Shown: in pieces, positions 11,111 through 64,000 of the stretch
Numbering within the stretch: position 1 is the first letter of the stretch
Layout of the letters: the number at the start of each line of letters is the position of its first letter
Assembly: GCA_964016885.1 (NCBI GenBank)
Contig: OZ024743.1
Coordinates: 337,094,001 to 337,158,000, forward strand
Direction: 5' to 3'
Length of the DNA: 64,000 nucleotides
DNA from: Eledone cirrhosa
Lineage: Eukaryota
Notes under the pieces: generated by a model
What the model was told of the DNA's origin: nothing
The model's input: only the letters and a program-made list of their open reading frames with translations
Databases searched by the model: none
Made by a program: the position numbers and the translations under genes

Positions 11111-40543
<29,433 letters not shown>

Positions 40544-44060: not shown

Positions 44061-44187
44061 GGACTGCATTAAGTAGTAAGTTTAATTGAAAGCGCACGAA
44101 AAGAACGAAAATATTATTTCCCACTGAAATCGGTGAGGTGTCTCTCAATAATATCAAAAATAGTAATACTTTCTCTCTCTATATATA

Positions 44188-44319
44188 TGTAGTGACCTAC
44201 ATTCCGCGGGCTCACATACATTCTCTGTGCGTGATTTGTCTCAGCTCAGCCAATCAGCGCCAGTAGAAGAGGATGTATCCCTACGCGTCCTGAGGGAGAA
44301 ATTACCCGCGAAGATTTGA
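44188..44319 (+). mobile_element. Truncated 5' LTR-like repeat
   Basis: Starts TGTAGTGAC after a TA run. It matches 45611-45723 apart from a 19-nt indel and a few substitutions, and contains a CCAAT box. Confidence 0.8.
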
Positions 44320-44338
44320 TCTTAAAGTCAGGAATTCC

Positions 44339-45508
44339 TCATGAGTTCCAGCAGTCCTGGGCTTCTGATATAGCCTCGTTGAAGGCTTGGCCTAGGGTTC
44401 CCGATCTAACCTTGGTCAACTGATTCTTTCTGAATGTCGATATGAAGCTGGACGGATTTGGGTACTGATCCAAAAGCTGGATCATCAGTCCAGCTATCAT
44501 GTATCCTGCATGTTTAGTATCTGCCAATGCTTCATCTGGAACAAAGTGGTGCTTGTATGATTTGGACCGGAAGGCGACTCTGAAAGCAAGCGCATCCATG
44601 AGTGCGCCTTCCACATGTCCCGGCTCTATGTTCTTAGAATTAATAAACCGTTTGTCTTTGTCTAGACATCCTATCATACCAAAAAAAGTGTGGAGGTACG
44701 GGTTCGATCCTGCGGAAAATACACATTTCTTGATTAGTCCCAGGGACTTTTGGTAAGGGAAAATCCCTGTATCTGATGCTCCTGCACTTAAGGATTTTAG
44801 CACTCTCATGGTCTCATTAACTCCTGCTTCATTGACCACCAAACAAACCAGATCTGTTATGGTTAGGTTGAGTGTATCTCTGAAATGATCAAGCACCTCT
44901 ATGATATGCATCCCTTCATATCTCGCCAATATGGTCCCCCTTCTCAGCAGCGACAGATCATGAGTGTTATAACTGTAAAGGAAATAATCTATCGCTGCCA
45001 TTACTTGAAAAACCTGATCGTTCCTGACTATATGGCTCAGGGCACCGTTGAGGAGCATGTCCTGGTCGTATCTGTATGGGTGCGTCATGCGATGATTATT
45101 GAAGGCCTTGATTATGTTTTGCTTATAATCCCCCACCTCCAGACCGGTGCCCGCATTCTCCACCTTGTAAAGGGTGACTATATAAAGCATTAGCCCGTGG
45201 TGGTGATTTTGGGTGGAGGTTGTTGCGGTTGGTGTGGGGAAGCTGGCATCTTCGGTGATGTTGAAGAAGTCAGCAAGGGTAACTGACTCTTTCTGTCTGA
45301 TAAAGTCATAGTTTTGGAGATCAGTATTTATATCAAATTTGAGGTAGGACTGGCAGTATTTGATCATGAAATGTAGGACATGTTTCGGGAGCATCTCCTG
45401 AGTGTTGGCTTTTGTCAGAATGAAATCATGTGCTGCCTTGACATCCCCTCCAGAGAAAATGGTTATCTGTTGGGGCTGGAACACCTCATTTTTTTTTCTT
45501 GCATGCAT
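44339..45508 (-). CDS. Endogenous viral element: rhabdovirus-like nucleoprotein N (389 aa from first ATG, intact, intronless)
   Basis: VMAAIDYFLYSYNTHDLSLLRRGTILARYEG...LDHF...IFPYQKSLGLIKKCVFSAGSNPYLH...KRFINSK is collinear with vesiculovirus N as recalled from memory (IVAAVDMFF..FKKH..ASFRYGTIVSRFKD...SYMPYLIDFGLSSKSPYSSVKNPAFH...TRARNAR). Confidence 0.85.
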   Translation of the reverse strand: MHARKKNEVFQPQQITIFSGGDVKAAHDFILTKANTQEMLPKHVLHFMIKYCQSYLKFDINTDLQNYDFIRQKESVTLADFFNITEDASFPTPTATTSTQNHHHGLMLYIVTLYKVENAGTGLEVGDYKQNIIKAFNNHRMTHPYRYDQDMLLNGALSHIVRNDQVFQVMAAIDYFLYSYNTHDLSLLRRGTILARYEGMHIIEVLDHFRDTLNLTITDLVCLVVNEAGVNETMRVLKSLSAGASDTGIFPYQKSLGLIKKCVFSAGSNPYLHTFFGMIGCLDKDKRFINSKNIEPGHVEGALMDALAFRVAFRSKSYKHHFVPDEALADTKHAGYMIAGLMIQLLDQYPNPSSFISTFRKNQLTKVRSGTLGQAFNEAISEAQDCWNS

Positions 45509-45592
45509 CCTTCTGTTCAATTATTTTTTAAACTGATGTGCTCTTTCAGCATTTGTTCTTGCTGATTCAATAATCTGTATCGACTACCGTCT

Positions 45593-45607
45593 AGGAGGGG
45601 AGGGGGG
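45593..45607 (+). other. Polypurine tract immediately 5' of an LTR-like repeat
   Basis: AGGAGGGGAGGGGGG, then TAT, then TGTAGTGAC. Confidence 0.75.
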
Positions 45608-45610
45608 TAT

Positions 45611-46573
45611 TGTAGTGACATACATTCTCTGTGCGTGCTTTGGCTCAGCTCAGCCAATCAGCGACAGTAGAAGAGGATGTATCCCTACGCGTCCTGAGGG
45701 AGAAATTACCCGCGAAGATTTGAAGAATCTCTCTCTCGCACCAGGAACCTCGAACCAGCAACCCGTACAACATGTGACGGTGAGATTTTGCACCTTAGCC
45801 TGCAGGCTTTCCGGCGCAATGGCACATTCCCTTTTGTAACCTCATTTTTATGTGTAACTTCAACCATACAAGTTAACCAACATTATTTGTGGGTGGATTT
45901 TATTGGCAGTATTGGTAGAGGGTCGGACGCCATGCTTTCTAGCATAGTTACGTCCCTTTACGATCTGAGTTCAAATCCCGCCGAGGTTGACTTTGCCTTT
46001 CATCCTTACGGGGTCGATAAAATAAAGTATCAGTAATGCACTGGGTAATTGCTGGCCTTGTGCCTAAAGTAGAAACAATTATTTGTGGGTGGATTGGCAG
46101 TATCGGTAGAGGGTCGGACGCCATGCTTTCCAGCCTAGTTACGTCCCTTTACGATCTGAGTTCAAATCCCGCCGAGGCTGACTTTGCCTTTTATCCTTAC
46201 GGGGTCGATAAAATAAAGTACCAGTAATGCACTGGGTAATTGCTGGCCTTGTGCCTAAAGTAGAAACAATTATTTGTGGGTGGATTGGCAGTATCGGTAG
46301 AGGGTCAGACGCCATGCTTTGAAGCATAGAGTTACGGCCCTTGCTATTCTGAGTTCAAATCCCGCCGAGGTTAACTTTGCCTTTCATCCTTACGGGGTCG
46401 ATAAAATAAAGTACCAGTAATACACTGGGTAATTGCTGGCCTTGTGCCTAACGTAGAAACAATTATTTGTGCTACAACAAAAATAAAAATTACGTTTCAT
46501 CTCTAATTTCTGCTGTTGACATCATTATTATGTTACTCGTGTCTCAATAACATTTATACACCATGCTGCTAAA
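45611..46573 (+). mobile_element. 3' LTR-like sequence interrupted by a SINE triplet (right end uncertain)
   Basis: TGTAG start after the PPT, a CCAAT box, and AATAAA at about 46482 after the SINEs. Candidate ends are CTACA (46476), ...AACA (46552) or CTAAA|TATA (46573), the last of which would match the TATA preceding 44188. Confidence 0.6.
45890..46470 (+). mobile_element. Three head-to-tail tRNA-derived SINEs
   Basis: Each ~190-bp unit has an A box (tggcagtatcggtaga) and B box (gagttcaaatcc). The units are separated and flanked by ATTATTTGTG. Confidence 0.9.
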
Positions 46574-46576
46574 TAT

Positions 46577-46714
46577 ATATTCATTTATTATGTCTATTGG
46601 TGAGCTTTATCGCTCTGGAGTTTCACCTGCGCACTCATAAGATCACCGGTCTTGTCTGGTGAGTGCGCGGGTGAGACTCCAGAGTAACGAGGCTTAGCCA
46701 TAATAAATGAATAT
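46577..46714. repeat. Nested inverted repeat / hairpin (MITE-like)
   Basis: Outer 16-bp arms (atattcatttattatg / cataataaatgaatat) and inner 25-bp arms (ctctggagtttcacctgcgcactca / tgagtgcgcgggtgagactccagag). Confidence 0.85.
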
Positions 46715-48059: not shown

Positions 48060-51000
48060 ATACAGTCATACAGTCACAATTTTATTCACAGTTGTATAAA
48101 TAACATTACAAATCGTTTGCAACTCTTTCAGAATGAAAATATAAACAGAACATATGAATAAATTTACAGTAGAATAACATAAATATGTTTTAAATATATA
48201 TACATAAATAACAATACAAATGCTTCGACAACATTATAAATTGCTCGCGATTCTTTCAGAAAGATATATTCTTTTAATGTTACAATATTAAAGAAAATGT
48301 AAAGGAAGGGGTGAACAACCGAGCGAACACCAGAGCAAAAGACAGCAGCGAGGGGTACTGGGCAACCTCTCTAATGATTTTTGAGGCAAGCCAGCCCACT
48401 CGCAGCGTTGCCTCGGGTGCTGGCGAGGCTGATGCGCTGAAACAGCCAAGCGCCCTCGCGAGATTCGCCAGATTCGCCAGCTACCTCTATTAGGCGAGCC
48501 GCCAGTGAAGAGAAGAACCTCGCAGTCAGCGTCTCGAAAGCCACAGGCTGAATAAAGGAAGCTGTGGCTCTCGTCCTAACCGCAGCATCCAGGATGTGGG
48601 AAAGCGCAAAAGAGTCACTAACAGTGACGTCCCAGAGAAGGCACCTGCCTCTTGACCAGGAGCACAGGGTAAAGCTGTCAGGTCTTTTGCCGTCACTTCT
48701 GGGCAGCCCAGATGGTTCCAAGACTGAGGGGATATTCGCCCAGGCCAAAGCTCTCTTCAGAATGAGGTTTAGCTTCGTGTGACGCACGAAGCGGCCGGCA
48801 TTCAGGCGGCAAGAAAGACTGTGGAGTCGAGGAGTTTGTCGCATCGGCACCTCAAACCCATGCAGACGTCAGCTCCCACTCTGAGGGCGATGGAGACAGG
48901 AAGTTCGTCCAGGCTGAGTAGGCCACCGACGTTGGCCACGGGTAGGGCATCAACCCAGTCGCCTGAGTATTTGGCGCTGGCAGATAGTAAGCGGCACCTT
49001 CAAACTGATCTGACTGGACGAAGAGAGAGTCGAAGGTAGCCTTCGAACTTATGCTGTCCTAAGTTCTCTGACTTCGACTGTCCTCCACCTTTTCAGGAAG
49101 AGACAAGCCCAACTCACTCCATTGCTGGAGAGCTTCACCCGACTCCCTGATGGAACTAGTCCATGTTGGAGAGGAGAGGTTGCTGCTCACCAAGGTGGAG
49201 GAAAGGAAGCAGGGGAGAGAGAGGGACGAACACTTACGAAGACCAAGACCCCCAAATCGCATGGGCAACGCAGCCTGATTGCGGGACTCTGGAGAGAGTC
49301 TAACATTGACCAGGCACTCGAGTCTCTCGAAGGTTAGGTCGTCGAAGTGTTGGAGGCAGGACGGAAATCTGTGAGAGGGGCTGACCATGAGCAGATACAG
49401 AAGCTTAGGACTAGTCAGGTAGTTCCTGAATATGAAGAAACCTTGATGAAGTTCGATAATTTCGATATTCCTCAGCAGCTGCTCAAGGCCAATCATCTTT
49501 GATTGGAAGATTGACTCGAAGGCAAGGTCTGTGTTGGGGCTCCTAAGGAACACCAAGCGGACAGGGAAGGGACCGCGATGCAAGGGAAGGACTCTGCCAA
49601 CATGTCGATTAGCTGTTGGTGTTGAGAAGCCGGGTGGTTGAGGATCCAGAGCTGACATTTGGAGCTATTGACCTGGGGACCCCAGCGGCCAAGCTCCTCA
49701 ACCATTTTGTTGGCAGTGGCGAGAACCATATCTGGAGTTCCCCCCAAACAGGCGTCGTCGAGGTACCAGACATTGAGGTCCAACTCAACCCCCATCTTGG
49801 TGACGTCATCAATGCCCAGTGCAAACAGAGCGGGCCCGAGAGGGTTACCCTGTTGGACTCCTGAGGCAGAGGTAATGATTTGGTCACCGAAAGAGAGGTA
49901 GGAGGGCTCCTGATAAGCCTGCCAAGCAAAGTGGTAGAGTTGTGAGACCCTCTCTCTTACTGAGCCGAGGACGATGTCACAGCTGACGGAGTTGAATGCA
50001 TTCTTGAGGTCAAGTTTGAGGATGACCTTGAGCGATGAGGAGGGCAAGTTGGTAAATGCTCTGGTAGCGTGGACAGCAGCCTCACATCCCAACCTGGTAC
50101 CCACCCCCAGCTGGATAGAGGAAAATTCCTCTGCCAGTGAGTCGGAGGCCAACAGCAAACACGCCTTTGCAGTGAGGCGGCGAAGAGTCCAGCCAACCAC
50201 AATGAGGCGCAGGTCCCTGTTGGGCTTGGTGAGACCAAATAGCTTCGCACCGAAGAACTGGGCGGATGAACGGGAGAACGTTCACTGAAGAGGACTGATT
50301 CACAAACCAAGTCAGACTCTCCTAGACCTCGAGTACGGCGTCACCGGCCGATAAGGAGATACCATCCTTGAGGTGTTGAGGATGAAGGCCGTCAATTCCC
50401 GTGCCTGACACAGCGGGGAAGGATGAAATCGCCTTTCTGATGATATCGGGGGTGTAAACCAGTTTCAAGTATTCTGGTGGTTCGGGCCAGTGTAACTGAT
50501 CATCTGGGGGTGCCGATGGGTGCTTCTCTTTCAGTCACTCAAGAGAATCAGAGTTGCAAGGAGCAAGGGGGGACAGAGAAGAGAGGAGACGGACAGCCCC
50601 TTTAATGTCAAATTCGCTGAATTTGGCATTGACCGCTTGCTTGAGGTCTACCGGTTGTCTGTTGGTGGACACCGAGCTCGATGTCAAACTGAGATGAGAC
50701 GTGGTTGGGGTGGACTCAAACAGCTGGAACTTCCGCTTGAGAGAGGACGTGAGGGAACCCGAATTCTCATTGTGCACGTGAAGAGAGATGAGGGGAAACA
50801 AAAACAAATTCTGCCAGTCATACATATTGTTGGATGAGCAAACGTTTTCCAATAAATTAGAGAGGGCACGTGCAAAGCTATTCCGAGCTCCCTTAGGGAT
50901 CCGGTTAACGAGCTTTGATTTGGAGAAGCCCTGGAGGGCTGTGACAAAGTCCTCGATAGAGAGTTGGTCATCGAAGCGTGGGGCATCCCCACGGAATATG

Positions 51001-51750
51001 TCGGAGCTGAAATGGCACCGATTACAGGTCCAGTGTTGAAGCCTTTCGGCTTGAGCTTTGGTGATGCCGACACAGCTTCTGTGGTAGCTTGCGTGGCATA
51101 GGTGACATTTAATTGTCTTTAAGTACCGGCTAGTGCGGGCACAGAGAGCGCAATCAGGTGGTGGGCTGGCAGCAGCTGGGTGTAGAAGGCCAGCGTTGGA
51201 ATTCGGTGGAGGGAGTGAGTCAGTAAAGGAGGCAGCAGTGGTTCTAACGGTGGGACTAGAGAGGAGGTTGGGTGGTGAGCTAACAGTTGTAGGGGTGGTG
51301 TGGTTGGCTGGGTTCGATTCGTTCGGAATCTGCCGTGAAGAGGAGGTGGGGGAAAGTTAGCTCCTCTTGTGCGTGCCAAAGTTGGTGGAGAATGAGAGAT
51401 CTAAGGCTGAACGGTTGTCACATAGTCATTCCACCAAGCAGGTCTCTTGGTCGTTCGACACATGCCACCGCCACCTAGAGTGGACTAGGCTAAAGTGGTG
51501 GCAACTTTATAATCGGTGATCGCCAGTGATAGTTCGGTCGAAACATCGGGCCACCGACGGGTTGAACGAAGACATAGGTGGGCTGTGCGCGAGGACGAAG
51601 TAAGGGGTGAGCAAGGGGAGGGATAGAAAGTGGAGAAGGAGGGGAGAAGATTATGTGTGCGTGGAGAGGAGTGTGGTCATGTGAGAGGCAGGTAAATACA
51701 GTAGGCGAGAAAGAGCAATGAACATGCAAAGAAGTACAAAATCTAAGGCT
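48060..51750 (-). mobile_element. CRE-clade non-LTR retrotransposon (RT + restriction-like endonuclease), frameshifted
   Basis: RT motifs QLGVG...GCEAAVHA, LDLKNAFNSV, GVQQGNPLGPALF and WYLDD; LPMRFGGLG; RLE motif KRPD...LLWDVT; C-terminal WLFQRISLA..RGNA; N-terminal RIPKGAR. Ends are approximate. Confidence 0.88.
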
Positions 51751-56795: not shown

Positions 56796-57494
56796 TGTGG
56801 ATGTTAAATATATTTTTGGTAAAAAGAATGACCAGAAATTTAGCTTTTTAAGGATTACCAGTACTGGGAAAGCATTTCTTATAATGGTTTGCTAAGAAAG
56901 CTCGGTGTATGAAATTATAATGGTGTTGATGAAAAATAATGATTTCTGATTTAACCACAAGGATAGCAATTTGTGTGTGGGGGTGGAGGAAGTTGATTAA
57001 ATCGACCCAGTACATTACTGGTACTTTATTTAATCGACCCCGTAAGGAAAAAGGCAAAGCTAACCTCGGTTGGATTTGAACTCAGAATGTAAAGAGCTGT
57101 AACTATATGCTGCTAAGCATGTCCGACGCTCTACCAATATAACCAGTGAAAAATAATAATACACATACATACTCACGTGCTTACACATGTCATAACTGTC
57201 ATATTTGCTCACCATCAGACATGATGTGGCATGAAAGTATACACTTATGATTAAGATGCTTGTACAAGAGAACATGTAGAAAAGCTAAGTGACTGCCAAA
57301 GAAAGAAAGAAATAGAAAAATGATACGAGTATCATGTATACTTGCGTACAGCATTTAACATCCATTTTTCCACACTAGTATGGGTTAGACAAGTTGTTCT
57401 GTTGTGAGACAAGCCACATCAGATGACCACGTCATGCTCATACAGAACTGTTTCTGGCTTGGTTTCTATGGCTGGATACCCTTCCTAATACCAA

Positions 57495-57885
57495 CCAAAT
57501 TTACAGTGTGGACTGAGTGCTTTTTTTAGTGACACCTACATGACCACTTTACAGTGTGGACTGGGCGCTTTTTGTCGTGACACCTACACGACCACTTTAC
57601 AGTATGGGCTGGATGCTTTTTGTCGTGACACCTACACGACCACTTTACAGTATGGGCTGAATGCTTTTTGTCGTGACACCTACACGACCACTTTACAGTA
57701 TGGGCTGGATGTTTTTTGTTGTGACACCTACACAACCACTTTACAGTATGGGCTGGATGTTTTTTGTTGTGACACCTACACAACCACTTTACAGTGTGAG
57801 CTGGGCGCTTTTTGTCGGAACACCTACATGACCACTTTACAGTGTGGGCTGAATGCTTTTTATTGTGATACTTACACAACCACTA
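57495..57885. repeat. 48-bp tandem repeat (about 8 copies) amplified inside an RTE/SINE 3' tail
   Basis: Unit accactttacagtatgggctggatgctttttgtcgtgacacctacacg; a related motif occurs 2-3 times in each RTE 3' UTR. Confidence 0.9.
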
Positions 57886-58480
57886 TACTCTGAGTGCATG
57901 AAGGCATGTGACCCAGTAGCGAGGGTGTTGGATTCACAACCATAAGGTTGTTGGTTCAAATCCTGGACCAGTTGGAGCATTGTGTTCTTAAGAAGATACT
58001 TCTATTCATATTGTTTTTCATGATAAGGCACCCAAGAAACCTCCTATGAGATGCAACCTCACAGGAGGCCAACTAAACCTGCATATGAGTGAGCTGTAAA
58101 TTTCATTTCATTTTTCATTTTTGATAGTTTGAATGTCCAGTTAAGAACACCTTTGAACATAAGTCTGCTCAGTCAATATTAACTGAGTAAAGTGCAGTGC
58201 TCAACAATAACTAACAAAAATGTTTTATTTTTTTAAAGTGGAAAATGCAAAAATTGAATAGGAAAGTACTTTATACCAGTGAATGTGAAGTTAGAGTATT
58301 AGACTGCTGGCTATATAGGAATAAGTTCAATATGTGGCCTGCTGTGCTGTACCTTGGACTTGAACTATAGCCTTGGGTTGACCAATGCCTTGTGAGTGAA
58401 ATCTGGTTGATAAAAACTGTGTGAGAGCCCGTCATGTTTGTTTGTATGTGTGTGTGTGTTTATATATATATATACATGTA

Positions 58481-61040: not shown

Positions 61041-61227
61041 ATATCGAATGTAGAAAAGTAACACACGAGTTGATATATATAGAAACAAATAGTAGAAAGG
61101 AAAAAGATTTTTTCAGTAGAAAATGTTGAAGAGATTCTTTCAGTGAAATATCAAAACATTAATTTATTTACAATTCCTAGTTTCTGCATTGTCAATTGCG
61201 GATATGCAGAATATTGTTAAGTTGCAT

Positions 61228-64000
61228 ATTTTCGAGGGTTTCTCTTAGTAGCTTTTTCATGTCGTTAATATTATGATGTTCCCTGCTGTATTAGCGTTAA
61301 ATTTTCCCTGCTGTATTAGCGATAAATTTTCGAGGGTTTCTCTTAGTAGCTTTTTCATGTCGTTAATATTATGATGTTCCCTGCTGTATTAGCGTTAAAT
61401 TTTCCCTGCTGTATTAGCGATAAATTTTCGAGGGTTTCTCTTAGTAGCTTTTTCATGTCGTTAATATTATGATGTTCCCTGCTGTATTAGCGTTAAATTT
61501 TCCCTGCTGTATTAGCGATAAATTTTCGAGGGTTTCTCTTAGTAGCTTTTTTCATGACGTTATTATTGTTAATTTTACTGATGTAGTATTAACTTATTAA
61601 CTTGGATATTTACCATGCGGTATTCTAATCCTATTGTATCTCTCTCAGTTATTTACCATGCGACCCTCAGTTCCTACCCCCCCCCCCCCTCTATGCACTT
61701 CTTTAAGGCTTACTACCCTGTCTTTAACCTAATTCATTCAATATGAAAATATTGAAGAGATAAGACACTTTGCCATTCTTCTCTGCTAAAATGTACCACT
61801 AGAGCTGATTCAAATTTTCCCAGCCAGCCATCCACCTAATCTACGAAGGTATTTTAGCCTACATATTGTCGTTAATATTATGATGTTCCCTGCTGTATTA
61901 GCGTTAAATTTTCCCTGCTGTATTAGCGATAAATTTTCGAGGGTTTCTCTTAGTAGCTTTTTCATGTCGTTAATATTATGATGTTCCCTGCTGTATTAGC
62001 GTTAAATTTTCCCTGCTGTATTAGCGATAAATTTTCGAGGGTTTCTCTTAGTAGCTTTTTCATGTCGTTAATATTATGATGTTCCCTGCTGTATTAGCGT
62101 TAAATTTTCCCTGCTGTATTAGCGATAAATTTTCGAGGGTTTCTCTTAGTAGCTTTTTCATGTCGTTAATATTATGATGTTCCCTGCTGTATTAGCGTTA
62201 AATTTTCCCTGCTGTATTAGCGATAAATTTTCGAGGGTTTCTCTTAGTAGCTTTTTCATGTCGTTAATATTATGATGTTCCCTGCTGTATTAGCGTTAAA
62301 TTTTCCCTGCTGTATTAGCGATAAATTTTCGAGGGTTTCTCTTAGTAGCTTTTTCATGTCGTTAATATTATGATGTTCCCTGCTGTATTAGCGTTAAATT
62401 TTCCCTGCTGTATTAGCGATAAATTTTCGAGGGTTTCTCTTAGTAGCTTTTTCATGTCGTTAATATTATGATGTTCCCTGCTGTATTAGCGTTAAATTTT
62501 CCCTGCTGTATTAGCGATAAATTTTCGAGGGTTTCTCTTAGTAGCTTTTTCATGTCGTTAATATTATGATGTTCCCTGCTGTATTAGCGTTAAATTTTCC
62601 CTGCTGTATTAGCGATAAATTTTCGAGGGTTTCTCTTAGTAGCTTTTTCATGTCGTTAATATTATGATGTTCCCTGCTGTATTAGCGTTAAATTTTCCCT
62701 GCTGTATTAGCGATAAATTTTCGAGGGTTTCTCTTAGTAGCTTTTTCATGTCGTTAATATTATGATGTTCCCTGCTGTATTAGCGTTAAATTTTCCCTGC
62801 TGTATTAGCGATAAATTTTCGAGGGTTTCTCTTAGTAGCTTTTTCATGTCGTTAATATTATGATGTTCCCTGCTGTATTAGCGTTAAATTTTCCCTGCTG
62901 TATTAGCAATAAATTTTCGAGGGTTTCTCTTAGTAGCTTTTTCATGTCGTTAATATTATGATGTTCCCTGCTGTATTAGCGTTAAATTTTCCCTGCTGTA
63001 CTAGCGATAAATTTTCGAGGGTTTCTCTTAGTAGCTTTTTCATGTCGTTAATATTATGATGTTCCCTGCTGTATTAGCGTTAAATTTTCCCTGCTGTATT
63101 AGCGATAAATTTTCGAGGGTTTCTCTTAGTAGCTTTTTCATGTCGTTAATATTATGATGTTCCCTGCTGTATTAGCGTTAAATTTTCCCTGCTGTATTAG
63201 CGATAAATTTTCGAGGGTTTCTCTTAGTAGCTTTTTCATGTCGTTAATATTATGATGTTCCCTGCTGTATTAGCGTTAAATTTTCCCTGCTGTATTAGCG
63301 ATAAATTTTCGAGGGTTTCTCTTAGTAGCTTTTTTCATGACGTTATTATTGTTAATTTTACTGATGTAGTATTAACTTATTAACTTGGATATTTACCATG
63401 CGGTATTCTAATCCTATTGTATCTCTCTCAGTTATTTACCATGCGACCCTCAGTTCCTACCCCCCCCCCTCTATGCACTTCTTTAAGGCTTACTACCCTG
63501 TCTTTAACCTAATTCATTCAATCTGAAAATATTGAAGAGATAAGACACTTTGCCATTCTTCTCTGCTAAAATGTACCACTAGAGCTGATTCAAATTTTCC
63601 CAGCCAGCCATCCACCTAATCTACGAAGGTATTTTAGCCTACATATTGTCGTTAATATTATGATGTTCCCTGCTGTATTAGCGTTAAATTTTCCCTGCTG
63701 TATTAGCGATAAATTTTCGAGGGTTTCTCTTAGTAGCTTTTTCATGTCGTTAATATTATGATGTTCCCTGCTGTATTAGCGTTAAATTTTCCCTGCTGTA
63801 TTAGCGATAAATTTTCGAGGGTTTCTCTTAGTAGCTTTTTTCATGACGTTATTATTGTTAATTTTACTGATGTAGTATTAACTTATTAACTTGGATATTT
63901 ACCATGCGGTATTCTAATCCTATTGTATCTCTCTCAGTTATTTACCATGCGACCCTCAGTTCCTACCCCCCCCCCCCCTCTATGCACTTCTTTAAGGCTT
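61228..64000. repeat. 98-bp satellite with higher-order organisation (runs separated by a repeated ~310-bp spacer)
   Basis: cgagggtttc recurs with period 98. The spacer starting gacgttattattgttaattttactg occurs at about 61556, 63339 and 63846. Confidence 0.96.

What the first reader, a model, noticed from the sequence alone, without database searches (positions are those of the whole stretch)
45508..45610. Possible fossil viral 3' leader and gene-start signal joined at the PPT: a template-switch footprint
Seen in the sequence: on the minus strand, a few nt past the PPT, the sequence reads ACGGTAGTCG... (from 45590), continues for 73 A-rich nt, then has AACAG (45517-45513) 4 nt before the ATG. 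From established knowledge, rhabdovirus antigenomes start with ACG, N is the first gene after a short leader, and AACAG is the vesiculovirus-type gene-start. The inference is that minus-strand cDNA synthesis passed U3 and the PPT, jumped onto the 3' end of negative-sense viral genomic RNA, copied leader + N, and jumped back into U3. That would explain the antisense orientation, the missing poly(A) and the truncated left LTR. These motifs are short and could be chance. An upstream AACAAATG CTG AAA... (ATG at 45552) could be the true start if an A-run has slipped.
Basis: inference. Interest (0 to 1): 0.7.

Follow-up and report, generated by a model that had tools for sequence, protein, structure and literature searches.

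The report
Retrotransposon-captured rhabdovirus gene; no viral leader
The supposed viral leader is the retrotransposon's own DNA, but next to it lies a decayed rhabdovirus nucleoprotein gene set backwards between a shortened and a full LTR, a layout found at three places in this genome and likely made when the retrotransposon's reverse transcriptase jumped onto viral messenger RNA.

Summary
45518-45590 matches 38 of 38 distinct parent LTR-element copies at 67-72 of 73 bases. ACG is parental, and AACAG is private to this copy (37 of 38 parents read AGCAG, none AACAG). Both ATGs are element-derived. The real virus/element break is 45483/45484, inside N codon 38; the viral start region is absent. 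The unit is LTR bases 1-132 / antisense N / 127 nt of 3' internal sequence with the PPT / full LTR, with a 4-bp target duplication and no primer-binding site. The same two junctions recur once, on another chromosome, with a different target duplication. A second LTR family shows the same layout, joined at the viral gene-end A-run. Best reading (about 0.6): plus-strand DNA primed at the PPT switched onto N mRNA through 6-7 nt of microhomology and later switched back. The two junction-identical copies differ mostly at synonymous sites (pN/pS 0.23), which is unexplained. LTR-mediated capture of RNA-virus sequence is known; this layout and the second integration appear to be a new variant.

The parts
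44184..44187 (+). left target-site duplication TATA, in a TA microsatellite and so weak on its own
   Evidence: parent copies L032, L033 and L038 show 4-bp duplications
44188..44319 (+). 5' LTR piece: bases 1-132 of a ~400-nt LTR, starting exactly at the LTR's first base; no primer-binding site follows
44313..44319 (+). microhomology at the LTR/virus junction: 6 nt shared with the viral 3' UTR as seen in the independent copy L063, a 7th base possible; 45 nt before the gene-end A-run
44320..45483 (-). rhabdovirus N-derived insert (1164 nt), antisense to the LTR element. It begins inside the codon equivalent to codon 38 of copy L066 and has gaps of 18 nt (near 44525) and 19 nt (near 44362, frameshifting) against sister copies
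   Evidence: Pfam PF00945 E 9.6e-23
44339..45508 (-). 389-codon chimeric ORF: the first 8 codons come from the LTR element's antisense strand, the rest from the virus
45484..45590 (+). 3' internal region of the parent LTR element (the supposed leader, ACG, both ATGs and the A-runs)
45513..45517 (-). AACAG, private to this copy (parents read AGCAG); not a viral gene start
   Evidence: 0 of 38 parents; the sister chimera has AGCAG
45593..45607 (+). polypurine tract, 6 nt longer than in the sister copy
45611..45891 (+). 3' LTR, first part (19-nt gap near its start)
45892..46461 (.). three tandem copies of an abundant short repeat (SINE-like; label recalled) interrupting the 3' LTR
   Evidence: family D20
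46462..46573 (+). 3' LTR, last part, to the LTR end
46574..46577 (+). right target-site duplication TATA

Best explanation
45484-45590 is the LTR element's own 3' internal DNA, and the neighbouring antisense N fragment was likely captured when plus-strand DNA, primed at the PPT, switched from the LTR onto viral N mRNA and later switched back. Shown: the anatomy (LTR 1-132, antisense N, 127 nt of internal sequence with the PPT, full LTR, target duplication, no primer-binding site) and both breakpoints. Inferred: a helper Ty3/gypsy particle co-packaged N mRNA. The plus strand copied 132 nt of LTR, entered the mRNA's 3' UTR through 6-7 nt of microhomology, copied 1164 nt towards the 5' end, re-annealed to minus-strand DNA 127 nt upstream of the LTR and ran to the LTR end. 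That leaves two correct LTR termini for integrase. The second locus with identical junctions likely arose by reverse transcription in trans, with the 132-nt LTR overlap standing in for the missing primer-binding site. The locus would give antisense-N RNA if the LTR piece is transcribed (untested); the ORF is a decaying by-product.
For: (1) The left end is exactly the LTR's first base, where plus-strand DNA starts (mechanism from established retroelement biology, recalled). (2) There is microhomology at the entry point. (3) Independent locus L063 (G000:C2:55.88 Mb) has the same layout in a different LTR family: a 172-nt 5' LTR piece joined at the LTR's T-run to the viral gene-end A-run, antisense N, 481 nt of internal sequence, a full LTR and target duplication CGCT/CGCT. 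Entry at the mRNA's very 3' end is what priming on poly(A) predicts. (4) Two other copies begin right at a shared start motif 51 nt before the ATG with no leader, and at least one of them (L067) ends in an A-run, as mRNA copies would. (5) Each junction pattern occurs at exactly 2 loci in the genome. The second, L060, has its own duplication GAAC/GAAC and unrelated flanks and shares internal-piece characters (T6AAA in 0 of 38 parents; GACTACC in 1 of 38). (6) L066 sits in an element with the same type of primer-binding site and a pol that aligns to the RT, RNase H, integrase-ordered pol in L062.
Against: The final DNA is the same whichever strand switched, so the window alone cannot tell plus-strand-on-mRNA from minus-strand-on-genome. 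In L063 the A-run could also come from the genome's gene-end tract plus the LTR's own run. Copies L064 and L068 cross the N gene end into the next gene, so templates other than monocistronic mRNA were also used. Microhomology at 45483/45484 is inconclusive: 3 nt in register, then 2 mismatches, to a copy 93.6% identical. The LTR's transcription start is unknown, and no autonomous partner with this LTR was sought. A simple copy does not explain the synonymous excess between the two sister loci. In Aedes Aag2 cells most LTR elements share polarity with the nearest EVE (543 of 614) and virus-transposon recombination looked sequence-independent, unlike the antisense, microhomology-guided joint here.
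Confidence: 0.6

Rival explanations
1. Minus-strand route with internal entry: minus-strand DNA copied the LTR, the PPT and 127 nt of internal sequence, jumped onto genome-sense viral RNA inside N, copied 1164 nt, then jumped onto plus-strand strong-stop DNA at LTR base 132.
For: It gives the same product with two switches. L064 and L068 read through the N gene end, which fits a genome-length template.
Against: Genomic RNA is coated with N protein (established knowledge, recalled). The L063 joint falls exactly at the gene-end A-run. Start-bearing copies begin at the mRNA start motif.
Confidence: 0.22
2. The virus was captured inside a complete element, and a later microhomology-mediated DNA deletion removed the rest of the 5' LTR, the primer-binding site and most of the internal region.
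For: These copies do carry small deletions (18, 19, 19 nt here; 16 nt in L060). Microhomology at a joint also fits DNA repair.
Against: Two loci with different target duplications share the joint to the base, so the shortened form was itself integrated at least once, or the same deletion happened twice. A second LTR family shows the same layout.
Confidence: 0.12
3. On the second locus only: the two loci are independent captures from two variants of the virus at the same pair of preferred switch points.
For: The 31 differences in N are 17 synonymous and 14 not: pS 7.1%, pN 1.6%, Fisher p 4.5e-5. pS exceeds the 2.5% (15 of 599) seen in the element-derived parts, p 0.0025.
Against: It needs both joints to recur to the base. 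There are no substitutions over 44320-44567, where L063 differs at 40% of synonymous sites. Hybrid joints were spread along viral genomes in mosquito cells.
Confidence: 0.2
4. One reading: the viral 3' leader and gene start are joined next to the PPT.
For: The short motifs are present.
Against: 38 of 38 parent copies carry the stretch, AACAG is in 0 of 38, and the copies that keep the viral start show another sequence.
Confidence: 0.01

Closest known systems
LTR-retrotransposon/RNA-virus hybrids (vDNA) and EVEs in Aedes aegypti (Whitfield et al., bioRxiv 10.1101/127498; Tassetto et al. 2019, PMC6797480; passages read)
   Same: Copy-choice recombination between an LTR element and non-retroviral RNA; rhabdovirus EVEs come mainly from N and G, with mRNA suggested as template; association with Ty3/gypsy.
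   Different: There most EVEs share polarity with the neighbouring LTR element and recombination appeared sequence-independent. Here the insert is antisense, starts from a shortened 5' LTR, has microhomology, is resolved to the base with target duplications, and lies in what is probably an octopod (inferred from the closest proteins).
IAP-LCMV recombinant cDNA in mouse (Geuking et al. 2009; seen only as a reference and as cited; details not read)
   Same: An LTR-element reverse transcriptase switches onto the RNA of a non-retroviral virus and the hybrid integrates.
   Different: I could not compare junction details. The present case is germline and present at more than one locus.
Anakin, the BEL-Pao element with a captured chuvirus glycoprotein (Dezordi et al. 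2020, PMC7642597; passages read)
   Same: A captured non-retroviral gene multiplied by retrotransposition.
   Different: Anakin carries the gene inside complete Pao structures as an env-like gene. Here the unit is non-coding apart from the antisense, truncated N, lacks a primer-binding site and has only two copies.
Rhabdovirus-N-like proteins in Octopus bimaculoides (UniRef100_A0A0L8FVJ3) and Argonauta hians (GAB1603531.1, GAB1610042.1)
   Same: Closest named relatives, at 43-60% identity; host-genome records.
   Different: Named viruses are only 23-28% identical (Almendravirus arboretum, Yongjia tick virus 2, soybean thrips rhabdo-like virus 2), too far for a comparison of leaders.

Membership tests
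rhabdovirus 3' leader / N gene start | sequence is virus-derived, absent from the parent element | tested here: not met
   38 of 38 parent copies match 67-72 of 73 nt
rhabdovirus 3' leader / N gene start | start motif shared with other copies of this virus lineage and followed by the viral ATG | tested here: not met
   L066 and L067 have AACTCGG and AACACGG 51 nt before their ATG; L064 has AACTCGA after its gene end; AACAG in 0 of 38 parents and not in the sister chimera
rhabdovirus 3' leader / N gene start | likeness to the leader of a close exogenous relative | not testable with these tools
   no relative in viral contigs; named viruses at most 28% identical in N among those looked up; the cephalopod virome paper is not held
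non-retroviral EVE of Rhabdoviridae N | homology to the rhabdovirus nucleocapsid protein | tested here: met
   PF00945 81 bits against a cut-off of 26
non-retroviral EVE of Rhabdoviridae N | integrated in host DNA with host flanks and decay | tested here: met
   lies in a 379-Mb contig, with target duplication and deletions
non-retroviral EVE of Rhabdoviridae N | placement in a subfamily or genus | tested here: inconclusive
   no tree built; an unlinked L-gene EVE is 45-52% identical to sigma-, vesiculo- and related viruses in the 120 hits listed; its link to this N is not shown
integrase-inserted LTR-element unit | correct LTR termini at both ends and a 4-bp target duplication | tested here: met
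   window TATA/TATA (weak, microsatellite), L060 GAAC/GAAC, L063 CGCT/CGCT
integrase-inserted LTR-element unit | polypurine tract before the 3' LTR | tested here: met
   45593-45607
canonical (self-priming) LTR retrotransposon | full 5' LTR and primer-binding site | tested here: not met
   5' LTR stops at base 132; the parent's PBS motif occurs 0 times in 44188-46573
canonical (self-priming) LTR retrotransposon | gag/pol coding capacity | tested here: not met
   8 parent copies are 1.9-2.2 kb from LTR start to LTR start; longest open frames 115-147 aa in the 3 translated; no Pfam match for the 3 frames of L034 scanned
Ty3/gypsy-dependent non-autonomous family | autonomous partner with the same LTR | not tested
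   only a shared PBS type and shared LTR start with the family around L063 and L066
piRNA-producing antiviral EVE | antisense small RNAs from the locus | not testable with these tools
   no small-RNA data could be examined

The most novel reading that the evidence does not exclude
The primer-site-less LTR/antisense-N unit is a mobile element that is re-copied in trans and is refreshed during re-infection. Its antisense RNA would pair with the circulating virus's N mRNA and bring it into the particle, and plus-strand synthesis would swap the middle of N for the current variant's sequence while keeping both old junctions. That would explain identical joints, an identical 248-nt joint-proximal block and virus-like synonymous divergence in between: a self-updating genomic record of a persistent octopod rhabdovirus.
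Probability: 0.25. Interest if true: 0.8.

Novelty: new variant of a known kind. Interest (0 to 1): 0.45.

Why it matters
The proposed leader fossil does not exist, so the finding as written is a coincidence of short motifs. What remains is a base-resolved record of how a negative-strand RNA virus gene enters a germline. The same layout (LTR start / antisense viral sequence / 3' internal piece / full LTR) occurs in two LTR families and points to plus-strand capture of mRNA, a step that can be looked for directly in viral-DNA sequencing. It would put viral sequence antisense to the LTR promoter at once, the orientation that antiviral piRNAs need. The junction-identical pair with synonymous-biased differences makes testable the question whether such inserts are copied without a primer site and updated from circulating virus. 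The copies also document a rhabdovirus lineage of octopods whose closest relatives in my searches were host-genome or unnamed records.

Tried and rejected
Viral leader, AACAG gene start and upstream-ATG start: rejected. An ACGAA just upstream of the start motif in L066 looked like a second leader candidate; it is part of the neighbouring pol sequence, read from its translation matching the pol in L062, so rejected. Segmental duplication as the source of the second locus: rejected, because the flanks share only dispersed repeats and the target duplications differ. Assembly error as the source of the sister-copy differences: public contigs show both versions at 7 sites in 44611-44759. The word-index protein search found nothing; viral contigs found nothing. 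Expression: no RNA holder listed, which is no evidence either way. The 44319/44320 joint was not covered by any listed contig of this allele; a hole proves nothing. The 45483/45484 joint is covered by one contig with 30 letters on the element side, one short of the tool's bridging standard. Two intended neutral controls were not neutral: L064 vs L068 pN/pS 0.40 (p 0.07) and first vs tandem C28 copy 0.10 (p 4e-5), so I have no clean control for the synonymous excess. The script had an indexing error that left one query empty; it was redone. Earlier scan notes: nothing found. Of ten literature searches, none listed a paper whose title points to this layout or to octopod rhabdovirus EVEs; I read passages of only five papers and the library lacks most subscription journals. 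Rey-Campos et al. 2023 (cephalopod rhabdoviruses; title seen in a reference list) is not held and may describe these sequences. No supplements were read; the EVE tables in supplements of the Aedes papers could hold similar junctions.

Full report
1. Observation. The described letters are all present. On the minus strand ACGGTAG begins at 45590, 73 nt with 32 A follow, AACAG is at 45517-45513, and ATGs are at 45508 and 45552. The ORF 45508-44339 (389 aa) matches Pfam Rhabdo_ncap (E 9.6e-23, residues 21-326 on profile 37-344 of 410).

2. A search of the own genome with 45560-45900 returned LTR-element copies that align from the first query base, and BLAST extended the match to 45484. I examined 58 loci: 6 lacked the internal piece (5' or solo LTRs), 13 were duplicates, 1 was a sister chimera and 38 were distinct parents. 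All 38 match the supposed leader at 67-72 of 73 nt and 36 contain AGACG. At the supposed gene start, 37 read AGCAG, 1 AGAAG and none AACAG. Upstream of 45484 the parents mostly continue with their own internal sequence. These loci were chosen as best hits, but the first look gave 765 candidates for the 142-nt piece (40 scored). So 45484-45590, both ATGs and the first 8 codons belong to the element. The A9 and A6 runs are the same at the sister locus, and a contig matches across A9 without gaps, so a slipped run is unlikely.

3. Where the viral start really is. The protein search of the genome scored 22 of 22 candidates and gave 21 matches at about ten loci. L066 and L067 keep the viral start: AACTCGG and AACACGG lie 51 nt before their ATG and directly after element sequence, with no leader. 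L064 shows a gene end (A-run), CT, then AACTCGA and a further ORF. That ORF had no Pfam match in L068; its identity as P is inferred from its position. Against L066 the window's insert begins inside codon 38.

4. Anatomy. Parent elements have ~400-nt LTRs, a primer-binding site, a PPT and 4-bp target duplications (clear in L032, L033 and L038, not in L034 and L035), and no gag/pol-sized frame in the three translated. The window unit is TATA | LTR 1-132 (44188-44319) | antisense N (44320-45483) | 127 nt of internal sequence with the PPT | full LTR (45611-46573, interrupted by three short repeats) | TATA, with no primer-binding site. At 44319/44320 the LTR and the viral 3' UTR (read from L063) share 6 nt, possibly 7, 45 nt before the gene-end A-run. 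At 45483/45484 only 3 nt are shared in register with L066, which is inconclusive.

5. Recurrence. Exact patterns across each joint occur at 2 loci, the window and G000:C5:74.85 Mb. The second (L060) has target duplication GAAC/GAAC, unrelated flanks and 0 of 132 differences between its two LTR pieces, against 3 of 106 in the window. L063 repeats the layout in another LTR family: a 172-nt 5' piece joined at the LTR's T-run to the viral A-run, antisense N, 481 nt of internal sequence, a full LTR and CGCT/CGCT. A C28 array (five N pieces) is also antisense within related element sequence, and L064/L068 appear so from an 80-nt match. L066 and L067 are sense. L065, L069 and L081 showed no match to the two LTR families tested.

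6. Mechanism. Two switches are needed on either strand. Plus-strand DNA begins at the LTR's first base (established retroelement biology, recalled) and is complementary to mRNA, so a switch at base 132 onto N mRNA and a return 127 nt upstream of the LTR give this product directly. The L063 joint at the A-run and the mRNA-like ends of other copies favour this route (0.6). Minus-strand synthesis on genome-sense RNA with internal entry gives the same DNA (0.22), and L064/L068 show that longer templates were used at times. Later deletion from a complete element (0.12) has to explain two integrants with one joint.

7. An unexplained result. The two junction-identical copies differ at 31 of 1148 aligned N positions, 17 synonymous and 14 not. 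Neutral change predicts 22-27% synonymous (binomial p 0.001 at 27%, 0.01 at 33%). pS is 7.1% and pN 1.6%, and the element-derived parts differ by 2.5% (15 of 599; p 0.0025 against pS). There is no substitution in 44320-44567 (permutation p 0.014, post hoc) and there are 8 within 34 nt near 45400 (p 0.00025, post hoc). Both versions are seen in public contigs at 7 sites. Candidate causes are homologous replacement from a later viral variant during reverse transcription, independent capture at preferred points, gene conversion from a copy absent in this assembly, or a period of selection with constrained LTRs. My intended controls were not neutral either (pN/pS 0.40 and 0.10), so the pattern may be general among these copies, and I cannot choose among the causes.

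8. Relation to known systems. Copy-choice capture of RNA viruses by LTR elements is described in Aedes (passages of bioRxiv 10.1101/127498 and PMC6797480), and later retrotransposition of a captured gene in Anakin (passages of PMC7642597). Antiviral piRNAs from EVEs are shown in PMC7522710 (passages). Geuking 2009 and Rey-Campos 2023 I saw only as references. The closest proteins are Octopus bimaculoides and Argonauta hians records at 43-60% and unnamed assemblies; named viruses among the ten looked up are 23-28% identical. The host being an octopod is inferred from this. My ten searches listed no title on this layout, but coverage is partial.

9. Verdict. The leader and gene-start reading is refuted. 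The template-switch origin stands in altered form. The recurring shortened-LTR/antisense layout and the second integration without a primer site are a new variant of a known process. Interest 0.45.

Noticed in passing
G000:C28:117.477-117.485 Mb (L061, L062): Five antisense N fragments of a more distant virus (about 70% amino-acid identity) inside related LTR-element sequence, four as a 1796-nt tandem unit. The first copy shares one joint with the tandem copies but differs at 14 sites, 10 of them synonymous. About 260 nt of unassigned sequence lies upstream of its ATG.
   Followed up: partly
G000:C2:47.05 Mb (L064) and C219:64 kb (L068): A 2.2-kb unit (96% identical) with N, a gene end, a CT spacer and the start of the next gene, ending at what looks like an LTR end with different flanks: a possible second copied chimera.
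   Followed up: partly
G000:C2:336.02 Mb (L066) and C5:61.19 Mb (L067): Sense-orientation captures that begin exactly at the viral start motif; L066 lies between pol sequence and the 3' LTR of an element with a primer-binding site.
   Followed up: partly
G000:C3:130.16 Mb (L070); also C23:16.2 Mb, C3:37.5 Mb, C27:17.0 Mb: Mononegavirus polymerase fragments. The C3:130 Mb piece is long, has a stop and frame breaks, and its best hits are sigma- and vesiculoviruses at 50-52%; no match to the two LTR families tested.
   Followed up: partly
G000:C2:46.93 Mb (L065), C25:7.91 Mb (L069), C1:314.57 Mb (L081): Further N fragments without a match to the two LTR families tested.
   Followed up: no
window 48371-51039: GC-rich stretch with several broken minus-strand frames that look like a decayed non-LTR retrotransposon (by eye, not tested).
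   Followed up: no
window 28712-30091, 34049-35834, 57452-57931, 61064-63946: Tandem arrays with periods of 90, about 81-83, 48 and 98 nt.
   Followed up: no
window 19541-20580 and 23933-24976: Inverted repeat of about 1 kb, arms 100% complementary in two blocks, 3.35 kb apart.
   Followed up: no
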